Positions 35,852-45,885 are shown, counted from the first letter of the stretch. The stretch is 64,000 nucleotides of DNA from an uncultured delta proteobacterium (GCA_963808235.1 CAWEEQ010000004.1:2784001-2848000); one strand, 5' to 3'. Notes: generated by a model not told the origin, from the letters alone. Numbers and translations are program-made.

Positions 35852-36283
35852 TCAGCGAACCCGCCACGGGGCCGGCAACTCCCCACTCTCGAGCCAGCGC
35901 GCATAGTCGGCAAGAATCTCCGCATGATCGAACGCCAGCGGAGCGGGCGGAGTGCGAGGATCGAACAGCGCCACTGTCTTGGCATCGTCCGCAGCGCGCG
36001 GCGTCCCCGACGCGCGCGCAACATACACAACCGTAATCGTGTGTCCCCGAGGATCCCGATCAGGCCGCGAATAGACGCCGAGCATCGCGCGAATTTCCAC
36101 CGCCAGCGAAATCTCCTCGCGCGCCTCGCGAACCGCCGCATCCTCGACCGTCTCGCCAAAATCGACGAAGCCACCGGGAATCGCCCACCCATGCGGAAAA
36201 TTCTTACGCTCGATCAAAACGATCTTATCGCCAATCTCCGCGATAATGTCGGCGGCGATCGGCGGGCATTGCGGACGCGGCAT
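35852..36283 (-). CDS. NUDIX hydrolase
   Basis: Nudix box [30 protein letters not shown]. Confidence 0.93.
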
Positions 36284-36345
36284 GTTCCTAATCTAACACG
36301 CGCGCACGCCGCACGCCGACAAGCGCGGAAAGAAATGGAGACGAA
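36281..36345 (-). repeat. ~65-bp promoter+ATG repeat, copy 1 (native NUDIX promoter)
   Basis: Minus strand ...CTTGTCGGCG...CGTGTTAGATTAGGAACATG; extended -10 TGnTAGATT 6 nt before the ATG. Confidence 0.9.
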
Positions 36346-36347
36346 TT

Positions 36348-36383
36348 GATCAATCGCGGAAAACGCGAGCGCCTCCCGTTTTG
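36348..36383 (+). repeat. 36-bp direct repeat (left island boundary; partner 45837-45871)
   Basis: GATCAATCGCGGAAAACGCGAGCGCCTCCCGTTTTG vs GATCAAGCGCGGAGAACGCGAGCGCCTCCC-TTTTG. Confidence 0.8.
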
Positions 36384-36394
36384 TCCAGCCCAGC

Positions 36395-36577
36395 GCTTGG
36401 GACACCGCTGCTGCCGGAAGGCGCGGCGATGGCGTTGCCCGGCGGGCCGCCGCCGGAACCGTTACTGCTGGTCTGGCCCTGCTCAGACAATGAGCGCACG
36501 AGCTGCGGACTGTAGAATTGGCCGCCGCCGCTATAGTACAGCGGCCCCGGATCGCCAGGTTCCTTCTCGCGGCCCTC
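36395..36577 (-). pseudogene. RHS-core-like fragment A (no tip)
   Basis: GREKEPGDPGPLYYSGGGQFYSPQLVRSLSEQGQ shared with copies B-E. Confidence 0.8.
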
Positions 36578-36673
36578 GCGCATCGCAAACAATAGTCGGC
36601 ACAACAAGAACAAGGGCGACTGGTTAGCTCGATGAGCCGGTGATGGTATCCGCACCGACTGCCCGCGCCGCCA

Positions 36674-42715: not shown

Positions 42716-43543
42716 GTGAACCTGCAGACAAATGGTCAGCGCCGATTCACGGTGGTCGAGCTGCCGGTGTTTCCGATCGTTAAGGAATCGTTGTTGACGC
42801 CCTTCCGGTATCTGCCTGAGCTGGTGAAATTCGGCTGGATTCCGTTTGCGGCTATTCTGGCGATCGATCTCATCTGCTTTGGCCTGCTGCGTGAGGATGT
42901 TTCCAGAGGCGTGACCGGCGGTATGATGGCGATCTCACATTTCGTTTTGTTCACGCCGTTCTCTGTGGCATGGACGAAGCTCGCGATCAGAGGCCCTCAA
43001 GCGGTCGCGAAGCATCCGCAGTTCTTTTACTCGCGAACGCAATGGCTTTATCTGCTGGCATGCGCCGTGATGATGGCGGCGCTCCTGGTTCTCGCCGGAA
43101 TACCGTACGCCATCCTCCGCTACGGGCAGCGAAACTTTGACAACCAGGTCTCGCTGTTCGGAACGACAATTATGATGCTGGGACTTGGCATTTACGTTGT
43201 CGCATACGTCAGGCTGGCATTCGTTTTTCCTGCGATTGCGATCGGCAGGTACACCGGCATACGAAATGCTTGGAAGCAAACGGCGGGAAATATTGAGCGG
43301 CTCGCGGCAGTTCTGGTGCTCGCGTTCCTGCCCTACTTGATCATCCGTCAGGCGTTCGAATGGTACATGGGATACCATCCACCCGGCGTTGTCGAGGCGT
43401 TCCGGGGATGCATCGACATGCTGCTCATCGCGCTTGCGACGACAGCGCTCGCCGGCCCGGCGCTCGCTTACAAGGCGATAGTGCTCGACCAGCCTCAGGA
43501 TGAAGCCGCCGCGCAATCGATCAACGCCGCCCCGATAGCGTAG
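42716..43543 (+). CDS. Polytopic membrane protein, unknown function
   Basis: ~6 TM segments; RLAFVFPAIAI..AWKQTAGN pattern. Confidence 0.75.
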   Translation: MNLQTNGQRRFTVVELPVFPIVKESLLTPFRYLPELVKFGWIPFAAILAIDLICFGLLREDVSRGVTGGMMAISHFVLFTPFSVAWTKLAIRGPQAVAKHPQFFYSRTQWLYLLACAVMMAALLVLAGIPYAILRYGQRNFDNQVSLFGTTIMMLGLGIYVVAYVRLAFVFPAIAIGRYTGIRNAWKQTAGNIERLAAVLVLAFLPYLIIRQAFEWYMGYHPPGVVEAFRGCIDMLLIALATTALAGPALAYKAIVLDQPQDEAAAQSINAAPIA

Positions 43544-43545
43544 CG

Positions 43546-45639
43546 TCAGCCATTCCACCCGCGCTGCCGCAATGCGTCGAGCGCGACTCCAAGATTATTT
43601 TGTGTCTTCTTCCAGTCACCCGGTAACTTGTCCTTGGTCAACACGGTTAACGCCTGTCGATAATTATCGACCGCCTCTTTCAGATATTTGACTCCCGGCC
43701 CGCGCATCCCGAGTCCTGACAATGCATCGCCGAGATCGCTCTTGGCCCGTGCCCATTGGATCGGATCACTGTCTGGTTTGAATACCTCGAGCGCATCGTT
43801 GTAATTCTGAATCGCCTGCTCGAAGCACCAGGACTCGTTGCTGCTTTCGCCCATCTCGTCGAGCGCATTGCCGAGCGCGGCTTTCAACGTCGCCCACGCG
43901 ATCGGATTGCGGTCGCGCGGTTGCTCTTCGAGACTGGCCCGAAATGCTTTTGCAGCTTCCGGCGGATAGCTCGGGTTGGGTTGGAGATCATTGAGACTCA
44001 GGAGCTCGTTGCCAAGGACCGCCTGAGTACCCGCCCAGCGCCGTCGATCCCAAGCGCGCGGAAATCCGTCCAGTACCTGCCTGCTGATGGCGACCGACTC
44101 CTTAAGATCTTCGACATTTGAGCGAGCCCCGCCGAGTAACTGGAGGGCCTCCGCGAGTTGATTTTGAGCGTCTGCCCAGAGCATCGGATCCGATTGTTTT
44201 CGGTAAACTCTTAGCGCCTCTCTAAAAGCCGCAATCGCGTTCTCGTAACCACCTGCGTTGTCCTCGCGATCCGCCAGCTCGCCAAGCACAGATCCCAGCT
44301 GCGTTTGAGCCGCCGCCCAGCTCATCGAATTGAACTTGACGTCGAAGCCCTTCACTGCGGCGCGACAGTAGTCCGCGGCCCGACGCAGACTGTCAGTGCC
44401 CGCTTCATGATTTGCAATTTGCTGGAACGTACGTCCGAGCTGGAGTTGCACGGTCGCCGAATCGAGCGAATCGGAACGCGCTTGATACACCGCCAACGCA
44501 TTCTTGTATGCGGCCGCAGCCTCCTGCAGAGGCGGCAGTTGAAGATTGAGAGCCGAGAGTTGATTCAGAGCCGCGCCCAGGTTGAGCTCCGCCATCGCCC
44601 ACTCCAGCGGATCGCGTTCTCGCGTCCAACCTTCGTGCGCTCGCCGAAGGTAAGTGATGGCGTTATTCAAAGAATCTTCAGAGTTGAGTTCGAGTCCTGA
44701 GACCCTGCTCGCGATACCGATCGCCAGGTTCACGCGGGCGCGTGCGTCGGCCGTCCACGCGCCGCTCCTTCGAGGATCGTCGGCGAGCGCGCGAGTCTCG
44801 CGAATTATCGGTTCGAGCGCATCGCCAAATTTGAACATCCACTCGCGCATGGTGTCCGCGCTCTGCGTTGCTACGATCAAGCGGATCACCTTGACCAGAT
44901 CGTCCGGCGGCACCTCAGGCAGCTTGAAGTCAGATGGAAGATACACTCCGCCAAACTGCGGATCGGATCCGAATTTCGTTTCGTAGAGCGGCCCAACCGC
45001 CGGACGCGGTGCGCCGCCTGCCCCGCCCCAGATCAACGCCTCCACGCGGATGTTCGTCACCGAGTTGAGCGCATCGAGATGCGCGATCCCCTGCGGACGG
45101 CCGGAGACCGCGATCGTACGATTCAAAATAACCGGCGTGATGTGCAGTCTCGGATCGACATTCGATAGCGCGTCGCGCAGGCGTGCTTCAAACTGCAGGC
45201 CTTTGTCACCTTCGAAATGCGCGATCGCAAAGACGACGCGGATGCGCCACTTTTCGACGTCCGGGTATGGTGCCGACGCCTCTGCGACTTCGGGCGGGAG
45301 CTCGCGGAGCATGTTCGGGCCCTGAAGATAGATTGAAGCTTGCTGCAACAGGAGAAACGGCAGGCATAACAGGGCGGCAATACCGGCGATTCGCCGAACC
45401 GGCTTGTAGCGAAGCTTAAGCCGTCCAATCTGGACGCGTGCTCTTTGCCAGAAGGTAAGGCTCCACACGATCGTGGCGATCAATCCCGGAATTGCGGTTA
45501 CGATGACCAGGTCGATCACCAACCGCGAGCGCGGCAAGACGGCGACGATCACCAGCACGAGCACAAGCGCGGCCGCAAGTGAATCGGTAAGGTTCAGCCA
45601 CGGATACCGCTCGGACAAATACTGACGCGGGGTCTTCAT
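43546..45639 (-). CDS. Membrane-anchored TPR-like repeat protein
   Basis: 3 N-terminal TMs; ~46-aa WAxxxxNLGxAL repeats. Confidence 0.85.
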   Translation of the reverse strand: MKTPRQYLSERYPWLNLTDSLAAALVLVLVIVAVLPRSRLVIDLVIVTAIPGLIATIVWSLTFWQRARVQIGRLKLRYKPVRRIAGIAALLCLPFLLLQQASIYLQGPNMLRELPPEVAEASAPYPDVEKWRIRVVFAIAHFEGDKGLQFEARLRDALSNVDPRLHITPVILNRTIAVSGRPQGIAHLDALNSVTNIRVEALIWGGAGGAPRPAVGPLYETKFGSDPQFGGVYLPSDFKLPEVPPDDLVKVIRLIVATQSADTMREWMFKFGDALEPIIRETRALADDPRRSGAWTADARARVNLAIGIASRVSGLELNSEDSLNNAITYLRRAHEGWTRERDPLEWAMAELNLGAALNQLSALNLQLPPLQEAAAAYKNALAVYQARSDSLDSATVQLQLGRTFQQIANHEAGTDSLRRAADYCRAAVKGFDVKFNSMSWAAAQTQLGSVLGELADREDNAGGYENAIAAFREALRVYRKQSDPMLWADAQNQLAEALQLLGGARSNVEDLKESVAISRQVLDGFPRAWDRRRWAGTQAVLGNELLSLNDLQPNPSYPPEAAKAFRASLEEQPRDRNPIAWATLKAALGNALDEMGESSNESWCFEQAIQNYNDALEVFKPDSDPIQWARAKSDLGDALSGLGMRGPGVKYLKEAVDNYRQALTVLTKDKLPGDWKKTQNNLGVALDALRQRGWNG

Positions 45640-45702
45640 TCTGCGACGACGGCGGTCATATTAGCGCAATCGCCATCCGTAGCCGCAAGTTCAGCGGTCC
45701 CA

Positions 45703-45772
45703 GCGACGCGCAATTCGACACCCACGTGCGTCCCACGCCGCCAGGACAAGCAGTGAGTGAGGCACGAACTGG
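45703..45772 (-). repeat. Degenerate copy 4 of the promoter repeat
   Basis: AATTCGACACCCACGTGCGTCCCACGCC..GACAAGC..ACGAACT aligns by eye to copies 1-3. Confidence 0.5.
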
Positions 45773-45854
45773 CGCGACGAAGAAACGCGCGACATGAATA
45801 GGTCGCAGAAAGTCGAGCCCTCGTGCGGCTGCGATCGATCAAGCGCGGAGAACG

Positions 45855-45885
45855 CGAGCGCCTCCCTTTTGAAAGGAGGCGCTCA
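45855..45885 (-). terminator. Hairpin terminator of the 45910 gene (overlaps right boundary repeat 45837-45871)
   Basis: GAGCGCCTCC-loop-GGAGGCGCTC. Confidence 0.7.

What the first reader, a model, noticed from the sequence alone, without database searches (positions are those of the whole stretch)
36281..45885. Integrase-free cassette array: promoter-containing repeats every ~3.1 kb carrying toxin-tip/immunity and other cargo
Seen: a ~65-bp sequence (CATGTTCCTAATCTAACACG..CGCCGACAAGCGCG..GACGAA) starts at 36281, 39409 and 42577, with a degenerate copy at ~45703. Spacings are 3128, 3168 and ~3126 bp. Units 1-2 hold RHS tip/immunity pairs; unit 3 holds unrelated genes (membrane protein and TPR protein) yet has the same length. 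No integrase or transposase is in the window. Inference: serial insertion at one intergenic site, each event duplicating the target, possibly with a length constraint. This gives a repeat-spacer array at gene scale, unlike integrons (no attC, no intI) or CRISPR. With only three intervals the equal spacing could be chance.
Basis: partly seen in the sequence, partly recalled or inferred. Interest (0 to 1): 0.85.

Follow-up and report, generated by a model that had tools for sequence, protein, structure and literature searches.

The report
Orphan RHS toxin array, copied promoter
A soil bacterium carries a row of leftover toxin-tip and immunity genes in which the start region of the neighbouring NUDIX gene has been copied twice, apparently giving two toxin fragments their own promoter and start codon; this is an unusual detail of a known kind of locus, not a new cassette system.

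Summary
The 69-bp repeat is real. It has three copies (36277-36345, 39405-39473, 42573-42641), spaced 3128 and 3168 bp, and occurs nowhere else in the 4.59-Mb genome. The proposed fourth copy near 45703 fails every test. The only other shared boundary is a 37-bp repeat (36345-36381 = 45834-45870).

The repeat is the native 5' region of the NUDIX gene: a genus-conserved extended -10-like box, six bases, then the ATG. The two extra copies are fused in frame to 5'-truncated RHS fragments.

The true periodic structure is five RHS C-terminal core/tip/immunity modules, 1.2-1.55 kb apart, with no full-length rhs gene at the locus. "Unit 3" is a conserved two-gene block (membrane protein plus TPR protein). 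In several relatives it sits beside similar RHS fragment arrays.

The equal unit lengths are coincidental, because the sub-blocks differ by -66, -267 and +371 bp.

Serial insertion with target duplication is supported. Five other RHS-fragment insertions, in this genome and four relatives, are bracketed by 27-190-bp target duplications spanning 1.0-9.1 kb. No recombinase lies in the window.

Verdict: an orphan RHS toxin/immunity array with promoter and start-codon capture. It is a new variant of a known kind. Expression and the insertion mechanism are inferred, not shown.

The parts
35852..36283 (-). NUDIX hydrolase gene. This is the resident gene whose 5' region is the repeated sequence.
   Evidence: Pfam PF00293, E 1.9e-21. 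The gene region is found in 23 of 24 same-genus genomes.
36277..36345 (-). P1: the native NUDIX 5' region, with a TGnTAGAWT box, 6 nt, then the ATG and the next few bases.
   Evidence: The box-N6-ATG arrangement is present in 11 of 11 relatives, in contig L041 and in all 3 P copies.
36345..36381 (.). T': a 37-nt copy of the sequence that follows the sec165 gene. It ends inside the loop of that gene's hairpin.
   Evidence: 89% identity to 45834-45870, E 7e-7. P followed by a T-like sequence is also seen in metagenome contig L041.
36350..36655 (-). RHS fragment E: a remnant with core homology at 36405-36576 only.
   Evidence: 88-91% identity to cores A-D. Translation.
36674..36946 (-). Small ORF after tip D, the putative immunity protein for D. 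It has a ClpX-type zinc finger.
   Evidence: PF06689, E 8.9e-12. The immunity role is inferred from position.
36948..38015 (-). RHS fragment D (355 aa): a short stretch of RHS repeats, the core, and a unique 120-aa tip.
   Evidence: The tip has no Pfam family and no Atlas hit.
38077..38565 (-). Small ORF rich in hydrophobic residues after tip C, the putative immunity protein for C.
   Evidence: Only a weak sub-threshold NnrU hit. The role is inferred from position.
38525..39411 (-). RHS fragment C. Its first codons come from P2. The tip is out of frame with the core by one base, near 38875.
39405..39473 (-). P2: a copy of the NUDIX 5' region, fused in frame to fragment C.
   Evidence: Its match to the orthologue in L041 runs 76 nt at 89.5%, 7 nt further than P1's.
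39492..39643 (.). Spacer: a paralogous piece of the rapZ 3' end, the intergenic region and the first codons of a MarR-like gene.
   Evidence: 83% identity to G000:C4:2783190-2783345. Gene identities.
39649..40068 (-). Small ORF rich in hydrophobic residues after tip B, the putative immunity protein for B.
   Evidence: A homologue follows a B-like tip in relative L032.
40068..40987 (-). RHS fragment B. Core homology starts at 40900. The tip carries the same one-base frame shift as C.
40905..41381 (-). Small ORF rich in hydrophobic residues after tip A, the putative immunity protein for A.
   Evidence: 92% amino-acid identity over residues 27-158 to an ORF after an A-like fragment in relative L039.
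41311..42579 (-). RHS fragment A (422 aa, an uninterrupted reading frame). Its first three codons come from P3, followed by the RHS interior.
   Evidence: In relative L031 the same RHS frame continues upstream through the fusion point, in an 871-aa ORF.
42573..42641 (-). P3: a copy of the NUDIX 5' region, fused in frame to fragment A. Its other end abuts the conserved membrane-protein block.
   Evidence: Bridged by independent contigs.
42716..43543 (+). memb275, a 275-aa ORF rich in hydrophobic residues. It is part of a conserved two-gene block.
   Evidence: No Pfam family. 58-86% amino-acid identity in 7 of 10 relatives' loci examined.
43546..45639 (-). TPR697, a 697-aa protein with a hydrophobic N-terminal stretch and TPR repeats. 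It is the second gene of the conserved block.
   Evidence: PF13424, E 1.3e-9. Synteny with memb275.
45834..45895 (-). T: a GC-rich hairpin and the sequence after it, downstream of sec165. Bases 45834-45870 are the partner of T'.
   Evidence: The fold has z = -3.2, and 0 of 200 shuffles fold as well.
45910..46407 (-). sec165, a small ORF with a hydrophobic N-terminal stretch (possibly secreted). It is not present between NUDIX and ADH in the relatives compared.
   Evidence: No Pfam family. Found at other places in relatives.
46402..47424 (+). Zinc-type alcohol dehydrogenase gene. In relatives it is the divergent neighbour of NUDIX.
   Evidence: PF08240 and PF00107. It starts 28-121 nt from the NUDIX start in 9 of 11 relatives.

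Best explanation
The region is a 'headless' array of orphan RHS toxin-tip/immunity modules. It sits, together with a conserved membrane-protein/TPR gene pair, between the NUDIX and alcohol-dehydrogenase genes of a Candidatus Binatus genome. Five 5'-truncated RHS C-terminal fragments (A-E) share a core of about 0.6 kb. Each has its own tip and a small downstream ORF.

The 69-bp repeat is the NUDIX gene's own 5' region: an extended -10-like box, six bases, the ATG and the next few bases. It was duplicated twice when RHS-containing DNA was inserted next to the NUDIX start. The upstream copy of each duplication became joined, at 2-5 nt of microhomology, to the interior of an rhs reading frame.

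I infer that the insertions were made without a site-specific recombinase. The likely routes are a single crossover of a circularised fragment that carried a short piece of the target, or template switching during replication. Either would leave a target duplication of variable length.

I also infer a function. The copies now supply a promoter and a start codon to fragments A and C and to the immunity genes behind them, which have no full-length rhs gene upstream to transcribe them.

The equal 3.1-kb spacing is coincidence.
For: SHOWN
1. Three P copies, unique in the genome.
2. P is NUDIX-native. In the 23 same-genus matches the NUDIX alignment runs into P, ending at query positions 584-609 = window 36283-36308. 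TGnTAGAWT-N6-ATG is present in 11 of 11 relatives, in L041 and in P1-P3.
3. The island is an insertion. NUDIX and ADH start 28-121 nt apart in 9 of 11 relatives.
4. A-E are RHS C-terminal fragments. Core copies are spaced 1201, 1549, 1513 and 1283 bp. Fragment A matches 842-1330-aa YD/RHS proteins over 39-94% of its length (15 proteins). In this genome it aligns to long reading frames of 1261-1567 aa elsewhere, at no more than 41% identity, and none lies at this locus.
5. The fusions are real. In relative L031 the RHS frame continues upstream through the codon where P3 is joined. The sequence after P2's ATG matches the RHS interior of relatives, leaving a 4-5-nt overlap with the NUDIX start. 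Both fusions are in frame.
6. The membrane/TPR pair lies beside RHS fragment arrays in 4 of 10 relatives' loci examined (L031, L032, L033, L034). Homology to the block ends at 42642-42648 in five of seven loci compared, directly at P3.
7. The same signature occurs elsewhere. Non-core direct repeats of 27-190 bp bracket RHS fragments, with the upstream copy no more than about 90 nt from the truncated 5' end, at 6 of 27 places scanned: this locus, G000 contig C2, L031, L040, L070 and L073.
8. No recombinase in the window and none of five transposase families in the genome.

INFERRED: promoter activity, the immunity roles and the route of insertion.
Against: - There are no expression data. No RNA run was listed, and nothing shows that P is a promoter. 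The simple sigma-70 scan did not flag P.
- Tips B and C are frame-shifted. P2 would therefore drive a broken toxin, and the selective story rests on immunity genes whose function is untested.
- The right-hand ends of P2 and P3 fall within about 7 nt of each other, and the left-hand ends within 2-3 nt. That is tighter than two random events would usually give.
- P1, the functional copy, differs more from the outgroup L041 than P2 does (alignment), so the order and source of the copies are unresolved.
- No donor context was found. For the youngest bracketed insertion (L073, repeat 99.2% identical) the tip and immunity part has no match in 46 other genus genomes or elsewhere in its own genome.
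- At 15 of 27 places I found no bracketing repeat. No shuffled control was run for the bracketing pattern, which rests only on BLAST E-values of 4e-5 to 3e-60.
Confidence: 0.7

Rival explanations
1. One reading: a dedicated cassette system without an integrase. P would be a recombination site, like attC, at which units of about 3.1 kb are inserted serially under a length constraint, by a recombinase acting in trans.
For: There are three near-identical P copies with similar ends and spacings of 3128 and 3168 bp. In relative L033, partial duplicates of the memb275 5' region lie 3043-3085 bp apart around two RHS fragments. The genome has 5 tyrosine recombinases elsewhere.
Against: - The fourth copy fails.
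- Unit 3 is a conserved gene pair with no P at its far end.
- The equal lengths arise from compensating sub-block differences (coordinates).
- Bracketed insertions elsewhere span 1016, 1116, 4272, 5362 and 9104 bp, with different duplicated sequences each time.
- No P copy occurs anywhere else in this genome. None was found in 46 genus genomes searched with the island, nor in the genome collection searched by exact 23-mer.
- The P copies share no common hairpin: z-scores run from +1.4 to -3.4.
- The P/RHS joints differ between P2 and P3.
Confidence: 0.05
2. An in-situ tandem duplication of one two-module unit (P, RHS, immunity, RHS, immunity). The novel joint fused NUDIX codon 2-3 to an rhs interior. 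Tips were later replaced by recombination. This would explain the similar unit lengths.
For: The units are collinear. In the middle part of the core (alignment columns 480-660), A and C agree at 170 of 171 positions and B and D at 180 of 180, an alternating 1-2-1-2 pattern. A tandem-duplication joint naturally gives a promoter/start fused to a truncated gene on the same strand.
Against: - The 5' part of the core pairs differently (A with D, B with C). The cores are therefore mosaics, not two unit copies.
- Sub-block lengths are not conserved between the units: 965 vs 899, 975 vs 708, and 0 vs 371 bp.
- The T' and E pieces that precede P1 are absent before P2 and P3. The flank of P2 is a rapZ/MarR-like paralogue instead.
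- The joints of P2 and P3 to RHS are at different RHS positions.
Confidence: 0.12
3. An assembly artefact of a metagenome-assembled genome: strain variants or paralogous RHS loci stitched together at a shared sequence.
For: The genome is a 4-contig MAG of a lineage known only from MAGs here. The locus is full of repeats. Soil contigs show other contexts for the same cores, as loose ends at 36437, 39208, 39411 and others.
Against: - The P copies differ from each other by 2-10%, and their flanks are unique.
- Two runs give contigs crossing P3 and both its flanks with 0 differences.
- None of the eight loose-end sequences occurs in the assembly, so they come from other organisms.
- The P2 and P1 junctions could not be checked in the rows shown. 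The runs may include the source sample.
Confidence: 0.03

Closest known systems
Orphan rhs-CT/rhsI and cdiA-CT/cdiI arrays (Poole et al. 2011, PMC3150448, passages read; Koskiniemi et al. 2014, PMC3967940, listing and start of abstract only)
   Same: There is a tandem series of 5'-truncated toxin gene fragments. They keep a conserved core, carry different C-terminal tips, and are each followed by a small putative immunity gene.
   Different: No full-length rhs gene lies upstream. In Poole et al., most orphans lack translation initiation signals and the one orphan region tested (E. coli EC93) is co-transcribed with the main gene. Here two fragments have acquired a neighbour's promoter-like region and ATG. 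The arrays are bracketed by target duplications.
Salmonella main/orphan rhs expressed from internal promoters as toxin-antitoxin-like modules (PMC7043789, passages read)
   Same: Delivery-less Rhs C-terminal fragments could be transcribed and translated on their own, together with their immunity genes.
   Different: In Salmonella the promoters and a CTG start lie inside the rhs ORF. Here the signals are a copied external 69-bp segment of another gene. Expression is untested.
Orphan immunity arrays formed by sequential displacement of T6SS effectors in Vibrio cholerae (PMC5361080, listing and start of abstract only)
   Same: Immunity genes accumulate through successive acquisition of effector/immunity modules at one locus.
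   Different: I did not read the paper's mechanism. There the arrays sit behind intact secretion and effector genes. Here there is no head gene.
rAID-1 recombinase-associated orphan immunity clusters of Bacteroidales (preprint 10.1101/471110, passages read)
   Same: There is an array of acquired defence genes with repeated intergenic sequences, 'reminiscent of integrons' in the authors' words.
   Different: rAID-1 is defined by a 5' XerD-like recombinase, low GC content and many short genes. Here there is no recombinase in the window and only three repeat copies, and the repeat is a duplicated piece of a resident gene.
Integrons
   Same: Genes are arranged in series and separated by a recurring short sequence, with a promoter at one end.
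   Different: There is no intI and no attC-like fold shared by the copies. The repeats lie at the 5' ends of the cargo and are fused to its reading frames. The units hold several genes.

Membership tests
Orphan RHS (displaced C-terminal tip) array | Repeated fragments homologous to the 3' core of full-length rhs genes | tested here: met
   Five core copies. Fragment A aligns to 842-1330-aa RHS proteins carrying PF05593, PF25023 and PF20148.
Orphan RHS (displaced C-terminal tip) array | Each fragment ends in a different tip and is followed by a small ORF (immunity) | tested here: inconclusive
   The anatomy fits, and the immA and immB ORFs are conserved next to like tips in relatives. Toxicity and neutralisation were not tested. 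The tips have no Pfam family.
Orphan RHS (displaced C-terminal tip) array | The array lies downstream of a full-length rhs gene that shares the core | tested here: not met
   The longest fragment at the locus is 422 aa. Long RHS reading frames elsewhere in the genome share no more than 41% identity.
Orphan RHS (displaced C-terminal tip) array | Orphan fragments lack their own translation start (usual, not obligatory) | tested here: not met
   A and C begin with the ATG of a P copy. B, D and E have no such start.
Integron | An intI tyrosine recombinase next to the array | tested here: not met
   PF00589 has 5 matches in the genome. None lies in C4:2784001-2848000; the nearest is at 3066086.
Integron | attC: an imperfect palindrome that folds as a single strand, one per cassette | tested here: not met
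   The DNA folds of P1-P3 share no common structure. Z-scores are +1.4, -2.2 and -1.1 on the + strand and 0.0, -3.4 and -0.7 on the - strand.
rAID-1 (recombinase-associated acquired interbacterial defence) | A 5' XerD-like recombinase with at least 2 co-directional low-GC genes (criteria in 10.1101/471110) | tested here: not met
   There is no recombinase in the window. GC content was not compared.
MITE / IS / REP-type dispersed repeat | Many copies spread over the genome | tested here: not met
   Only the three local copies were found. Five transposase families have 0 matches in the genome.
CRISPR-like repeat-spacer array | Short identical repeats with short unique spacers | tested here: not met
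   The repeat is 69 nt and 80-98% alike, with spacers of about 3.1 kb that hold genes. Rfam found nothing in the window. cas genes were not searched.

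The most novel reading that the evidence does not exclude
In Candidatus Binatus, rhs tip/immunity DNA may spread as recombinase-independent cassettes. A segment that starts inside an rhs gene would be inserted into the edge of a resident gene or into a terminator hairpin. The insertion would always be accompanied by a 27-190-bp duplication of that edge, so the resident gene survives. 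At the NUDIX site this would have happened serially, so that successive units each inherited a copy of a leaderless-type promoter plus ATG. That would be a natural, self-assembling expression array for orphan toxin fragments and immunity genes.
Probability: 0.25. Interest if true: 0.7.

Novelty: new variant of a known kind. Interest (0 to 1): 0.4.

Why it matters
Orphan toxin/immunity arrays are thought to act as silent reserves, or as immunity collections transcribed from the main toxin gene. Here the array has no main gene. Two fragments instead carry a copied promoter-like region and the start codon of a housekeeping neighbour.

If the copies are active, this shows a simple way in which leftover toxin/immunity modules stay expressed. 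Duplication of a compact leaderless-type start region would turn random insertions into translational fusions.

The recurring target duplications around RHS fragments in several Binatus genomes hint at a mode of insertion that needs no integrase. That would bear on how polymorphic-toxin loci move in IS-poor genomes known only from metagenome assemblies. None of this changes the basic picture of RHS biology.

Tried and rejected
- FOURTH COPY AT ABOUT 45703: rejected.
- RNA FAMILIES: Rfam found no family in the 64-kb window.
- SIGMA-70 SCAN: it did not flag P. The extended -10 reading comes from conservation and from recalled consensus.
- EXPRESSION: no RNA holder was listed by the look-up of sequencing runs.
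- LAID CONTIGS: they are short (up to 805 nt on the stretch) and low depth. No joints were reported, and one odd X2 record (36685 to 44334 with 35 foreign letters) was not interpretable. Parts without cover say nothing.
- STRAIN VARIANTS: an exact 23-mer of P found one 1221-bp metagenome contig (L041), which ends 110 nt upstream of the NUDIX start, and nothing in genome contigs.
- EMPTY OLD SITE FOR THE MEMBRANE/TPR/RHS BLOCK: the flanks seen in relatives (VWA-domain genes) are not syntenic in this genome. Only one VWA gene is conserved, at 85-86%.
- DONOR FOR THE YOUNGEST BRACKETED INSERTION (L073): none was found in its own genome or in 46 genus genomes.
- TIP FUNCTION: no Pfam family at E<=1 and no usable Atlas hit for tip D.
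- REPEATS SET ASIDE IN THE SURVEY: L060 (the repeat lies inside RHS-like ORFs), L067 (repeats 11 kb apart, not examined), and L061, L064 and the second pair in L031 (70-73% paralogous genes).
Supplementary files of the papers were not consulted and may hold repeat or motif details for rAID-1 and for the Salmonella promoters.
- NOT USED: structure prediction and complex prediction.

Full report
THE OBSERVATION

A 69-nt direct repeat is present at 36277-36345 (P1), 39405-39473 (P2) and 42573-42641 (P3), with spacings of 3128 and 3168 bp. Pairwise identities are 89.9% (P1/P2, 69 nt), 94.8% (P1/P3, 58 nt) and 98.0% (P2/P3, 51 nt).

The window lies at G000:C4:2784001-2848000 in a 4-contig, 4.59-Mb assembly. 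BLAST of P1 with its flank against that assembly gave 36 rows at E<=10. Only P1, P2, P3 and one 37-nt piece near 45.8 kb are significant. A profile of P1-P3 plus an orthologue, run without filters over the genome, found the same three sites (E 7e-21 to 6e-20); the next hit had E=0.88 and lay elsewhere.

The proposed fourth copy near 45703 is not supported. Local alignment scores of P1, P2 and P3 against 45640-45833 were reached by 49, 8 and 253 of 1000 shuffles, and by 57, 37 and 306 of 1000 real windows. P2 aligned in another register. The site is not among the 40 best profile rows.

What recurs at the far end is a different piece. T' (36345-36381), immediately next to P1, matches T (45834-45870) at 89% (E 7e-7). 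T is the sequence just after a strong hairpin that follows the small gene at 45910 (fold z = -3.2).

Contigs from two soil runs cross P3 and both of its flanks without a difference. These runs may include the source sample. I could not see rows crossing P1 or P2.

WHAT P IS

P ends in the start codon of the NUDIX hydrolase gene (35852-36283, minus strand; PF00293).

The NUDIX region is found in 23 of 24 same-genus genomes. Their alignments run past the start codon into P, ending at window 36283-36308.

On the coding strand, all 11 relatives' loci examined, a metagenome contig (L041) and the three P copies carry TGnTAGAWT, then six bases, then the ATG. From recalled knowledge of bacterial promoters this looks like an extended -10 element placed so that transcription would start at or next to the ATG, giving a leaderless-type message. 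That is an inference. The simple sigma-70 scan did not flag P, and no RNA data were available.

In 9 of the 11 relatives the divergent neighbour of NUDIX is the zinc-type alcohol dehydrogenase gene that lies at 46402 in the window, starting only 28-121 nt away. So roughly 36.33-46.36 kb of the window is inserted material.

Contig L041, from an organism about 88% identical in NUDIX, has NUDIX, P, 19 nt and then a T-like sequence before it ends. The P-T junction is therefore older than the rest of the insertion.

WHAT LIES BETWEEN THE COPIES

All on the minus strand, there are five fragments of rhs genes (A 41311-42579, B about 40068-40987, C about 38525-39411, D 36948-38015, E 36350-36655). They share a core of about 0.6 kb (86-95% identity) whose copies are spaced 1201, 1549, 1513 and 1283 bp.

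Fragment A aligns over 39-94% of its length to 15 proteins of 842-1330 aa that carry RHS-repeat, YD-shell and DUF6531 domains. In this genome it aligns to the C-terminal parts of long reading frames of 1261-1567 aa elsewhere, at no more than 41% identity. No full-length rhs gene lies at this locus.

Each core is followed by a different tip and a small ORF. Three of these ORFs are rich in hydrophobic residues (judged by eye), and one has a ClpX-type zinc finger (PF06689). The tips match no Pfam family. Tips B and C are out of frame with their cores by the same one-base difference.

This is the anatomy of an orphan rhs toxin/immunity array (Poole et al. 2011, PMC3150448, passages read), except that it is headless.

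The cores are mosaics. In the 5' part A pairs with D and B with C. In the middle part (alignment columns 480-660) A pairs with C (170 of 171 positions) and B with D (180 of 180). They have recombined with each other or with outside alleles. They are not simply two copies of a two-module unit.

THE FUSIONS

P3 supplies the first three codons of fragment A. In relative L031 the homologous RHS frame continues upstream through that very codon, in an 871-aa ORF. A is therefore a truncated rhs joined to the NUDIX start.

P2 supplies the start of fragment C. The bases after the ATG match the RHS interior seen in several relatives, so the joint lies in 4-5 nt shared by the NUDIX start and the rhs sequence.

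Both joints are in frame but lie at different places in the rhs sequence. On the other side:
- P3 abuts the conserved membrane-protein block.
- P2 abuts a 152-nt paralogue (83%) of the rapZ 3' end and MarR-like gene start, which lie 37 kb away.
- P1 abuts T'.
- P2's match to the orthologue in L041 runs 7 nt further than P1's.

'UNIT 3'

The membrane protein (42716-43543) and the TPR protein (43546-45639) form a conserved pair. Some part of the island is found in 37 of 46 other genus genomes.

In the 10 relatives' loci I fetched, the pair is present in 7. It lies next to RHS fragment arrays, in the same relative orientation, in 4 of them (L031, L032, L033, L034).

Homology to the block ends at window 42642-42648 in five of the seven loci compared and at 42682-42697 in two. 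On the TPR side it ends at 45560-45738. The block is thus about 3.06 kb long whatever its neighbours are.

Its size explains the third 'interval', which in any case ends in T, not in a P copy.

WHY THE SPACING IS EQUAL

Using the coordinates:
- Unit 1 is 69 + 965 + 528 + 975 + 591 = 3128 bp.
- Unit 2 is 69 + 899 + 528 + 708 + 593 + 371 = 3168 bp.

The variable parts differ by -66, -267 and +371 bp. The totals agree by compensation, not by conservation.

HOW THE COPIES AROSE

No tyrosine recombinase lies in the window: 5 are found in the genome, the nearest 218 kb away. Five transposase or recombinase families (rve, resolvase, DDE_Tnp_1, IS110, Y1) have no match in the 93%-complete genome. P has no fold shared by its copies.

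I then looked at other RHS fragment loci. I scanned 29 stretches: 27 from relatives, contig C2 of this genome and the window locus. These gave 27 distinct places with RHS core hits.

At 6 of the 27 places a non-core direct repeat brackets the RHS fragment(s), with the upstream copy ending within about 90 nt of the truncated 5' end:
- The window locus: P3/P2 and P2/P1.
- G000 contig C2: 27 nt at 96%, extending to about 49 nt, spacing 5362 bp. The right copy is a complete hairpin after a catalase-peroxidase-like gene (so called by eye from its C-terminal residues; not run against Pfam), and the left copy stops inside the hairpin arm and runs straight into rhs.
- L031: 143 nt at 94%, the 3' end of a VWA-domain gene, spacing 9104 bp.
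- L040: 49 nt at 96%, the overlapping ends of two convergent genes, spacing 4272 bp.
- L073: 125 nt at 99.2%, the 3' end of a gene, spacing 1016 bp.
- L070: 190 nt at 85%, the 5' part of the memb275 homologue, spacing 1116 bp.

Two more places show target-derived repeats in other arrangements (L033, L032). Four had repeats that I set aside. At 15 I found none at my thresholds. I ran no shuffled control for this pattern; it rests on BLAST E-values of 4e-5 to 3e-60 and on the positions.

The window's T'/T pair (spacing 9489 bp) has the same character, and its break lies in a hairpin loop.

So insertion of rhs-containing DNA with duplication of a few tens to about 190 nt of the target recurs in this genus. 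The lengths of both the insert and the duplication vary.

A duplication of variable length, with one copy joined to an arbitrary point inside rhs, is what two routes would give:
- A single homologous crossover of a circularised DNA fragment that carried a short piece of the target.
- A replication template switch that returns behind its point of departure.

I cannot tell these apart. For the youngest case (L073) no donor copy exists in its own genome or in 46 genus genomes. That argues against copying from within that genome but shows no donor context.

WHAT IT PROBABLY DOES

In orphan arrays described so far, most fragments lack translation starts, and the one orphan region tested (E. coli EC93) is co-transcribed with the main gene (PMC3150448, passages). 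In Salmonella, internal promoters inside rhs drive delivery-less toxin fragments with their immunity genes, which act like toxin-antitoxin modules (PMC7043789, passages).

A headless array has no upstream gene to transcribe it. Copies of a compact promoter-plus-ATG would restore expression. P3 would drive A (an uninterrupted 422-aa frame) and its downstream ORFs. P2 would drive the broken C and the ORFs behind it.

I therefore think the copies are kept because they express immunity genes, and perhaps an intracellular toxin/antidote pair. This is inference.

COMPARISON AND VERDICT

The locus works like, and largely is, an orphan rhs array. It fails the usual feature of a full-length gene upstream. 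It adds two unusual traits: captured start signals and bracketing target duplications.

It is not an integron, an rAID-1 cluster (10.1101/471110, passages), a CRISPR-like array or a dispersed repeat element; see the membership tests.

In two literature searches none of the titles and abstract starts listed described target duplications around rhs orphans or promoter capture by them. I did not open most of those papers, so this is weak evidence of novelty.

Record titles of relatives name them as Candidatus Binatus or 'uncultured delta proteobacterium' MAGs.

The narrower idea of serial insertion with target duplication is.

Noticed in passing
G000:C2:84074-84100 and 89436-89461 (outside the window): A second headless RHS fragment array in the same genome is bracketed by a 27-nt (about 49-nt) direct repeat. 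The right copy is a full hairpin after a catalase-peroxidase-like gene (named by eye from its C-terminal residues). The left copy stops inside the hairpin arm and is joined directly to a truncated rhs frame.
   Followed up: partly
L031:9416-9558 / 18520-18662; L040:5344-5392 / 9616-9664; L073:9827-9951 / 10843-10967; L070:9590-9779 / 10706-10890: In four relatives, RHS fragments are bracketed by 49-190-nt duplications of the edge of a resident gene, and the resident gene stays whole. Spacings are 9104, 4272, 1016 and 1116 bp.
   Followed up: partly
L033:7803-8186 versus 10888-11826: A partial, internally deleted duplicate of the memb275 homologue (upstream region, first codons and 3' end) lies on the other side of two RHS fragments from the whole gene. 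The repeat spacings of 3043-3085 bp happen to be close to the window's 3.1 kb.
   Followed up: no
window 39492-39643 and G000:C4:2783190-2783345: The spacer between immB and P2 is an 83% paralogue of the rapZ 3' end, the intergenic region and the first codons of a MarR-like gene that lie just before the window. Its origin, an old duplication or import from another strain, is unexplained.
   Followed up: partly
window near 38875 and near 40378: Tips B and C share the same one-base difference from A at the core/tip boundary, which puts both tips out of frame. D has the same boundary bases but continues in frame into its own tip. B and C therefore look like out-of-frame recombinants.
   Followed up: partly
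window 39411 (run X1, loose end): A soil contig matches fragment C up to and including the ATG. It then continues upstream with a different sequence that holds a strong Shine-Dalgarno-like motif, and this sequence is not present in this genome. Another organism may carry the same truncated rhs start joined to a different gene start.
   Followed up: partly
window 42642-45738 and the relatives' loci L031-L038: The membrane-protein/TPR gene pair keeps nearly the same ends (42642-42648 on one side in five of seven loci) while its neighbours differ between genomes: VWA-domain genes, RHS arrays or other genes. It behaves as a discrete block of unknown function.
   Followed up: partly
L032:11568-11687, 15057-15209 and 17041-17100: In one relative, a segment of about 100 nt from the TPR-memb275 intergenic region, with a hairpin, recurs twice inside the RHS array. 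A 43-nt hairpin-plus-box segment recurs four times.
   Followed up: no
whole genome G000: The 93%-complete genome has no match to five common transposase or recombinase families and only five tyrosine recombinases. It is IS-poor, yet rich in rearranged RHS loci.
   Followed up: partly
window 36157-36185 versus 37442-37470, 38997-39025, 40504-40532 and 41793-41821: A 29-nt stretch inside the NUDIX coding region is 69-79% like a stretch of the RHS cores (family D7). This is probably chance.
   Followed up: no
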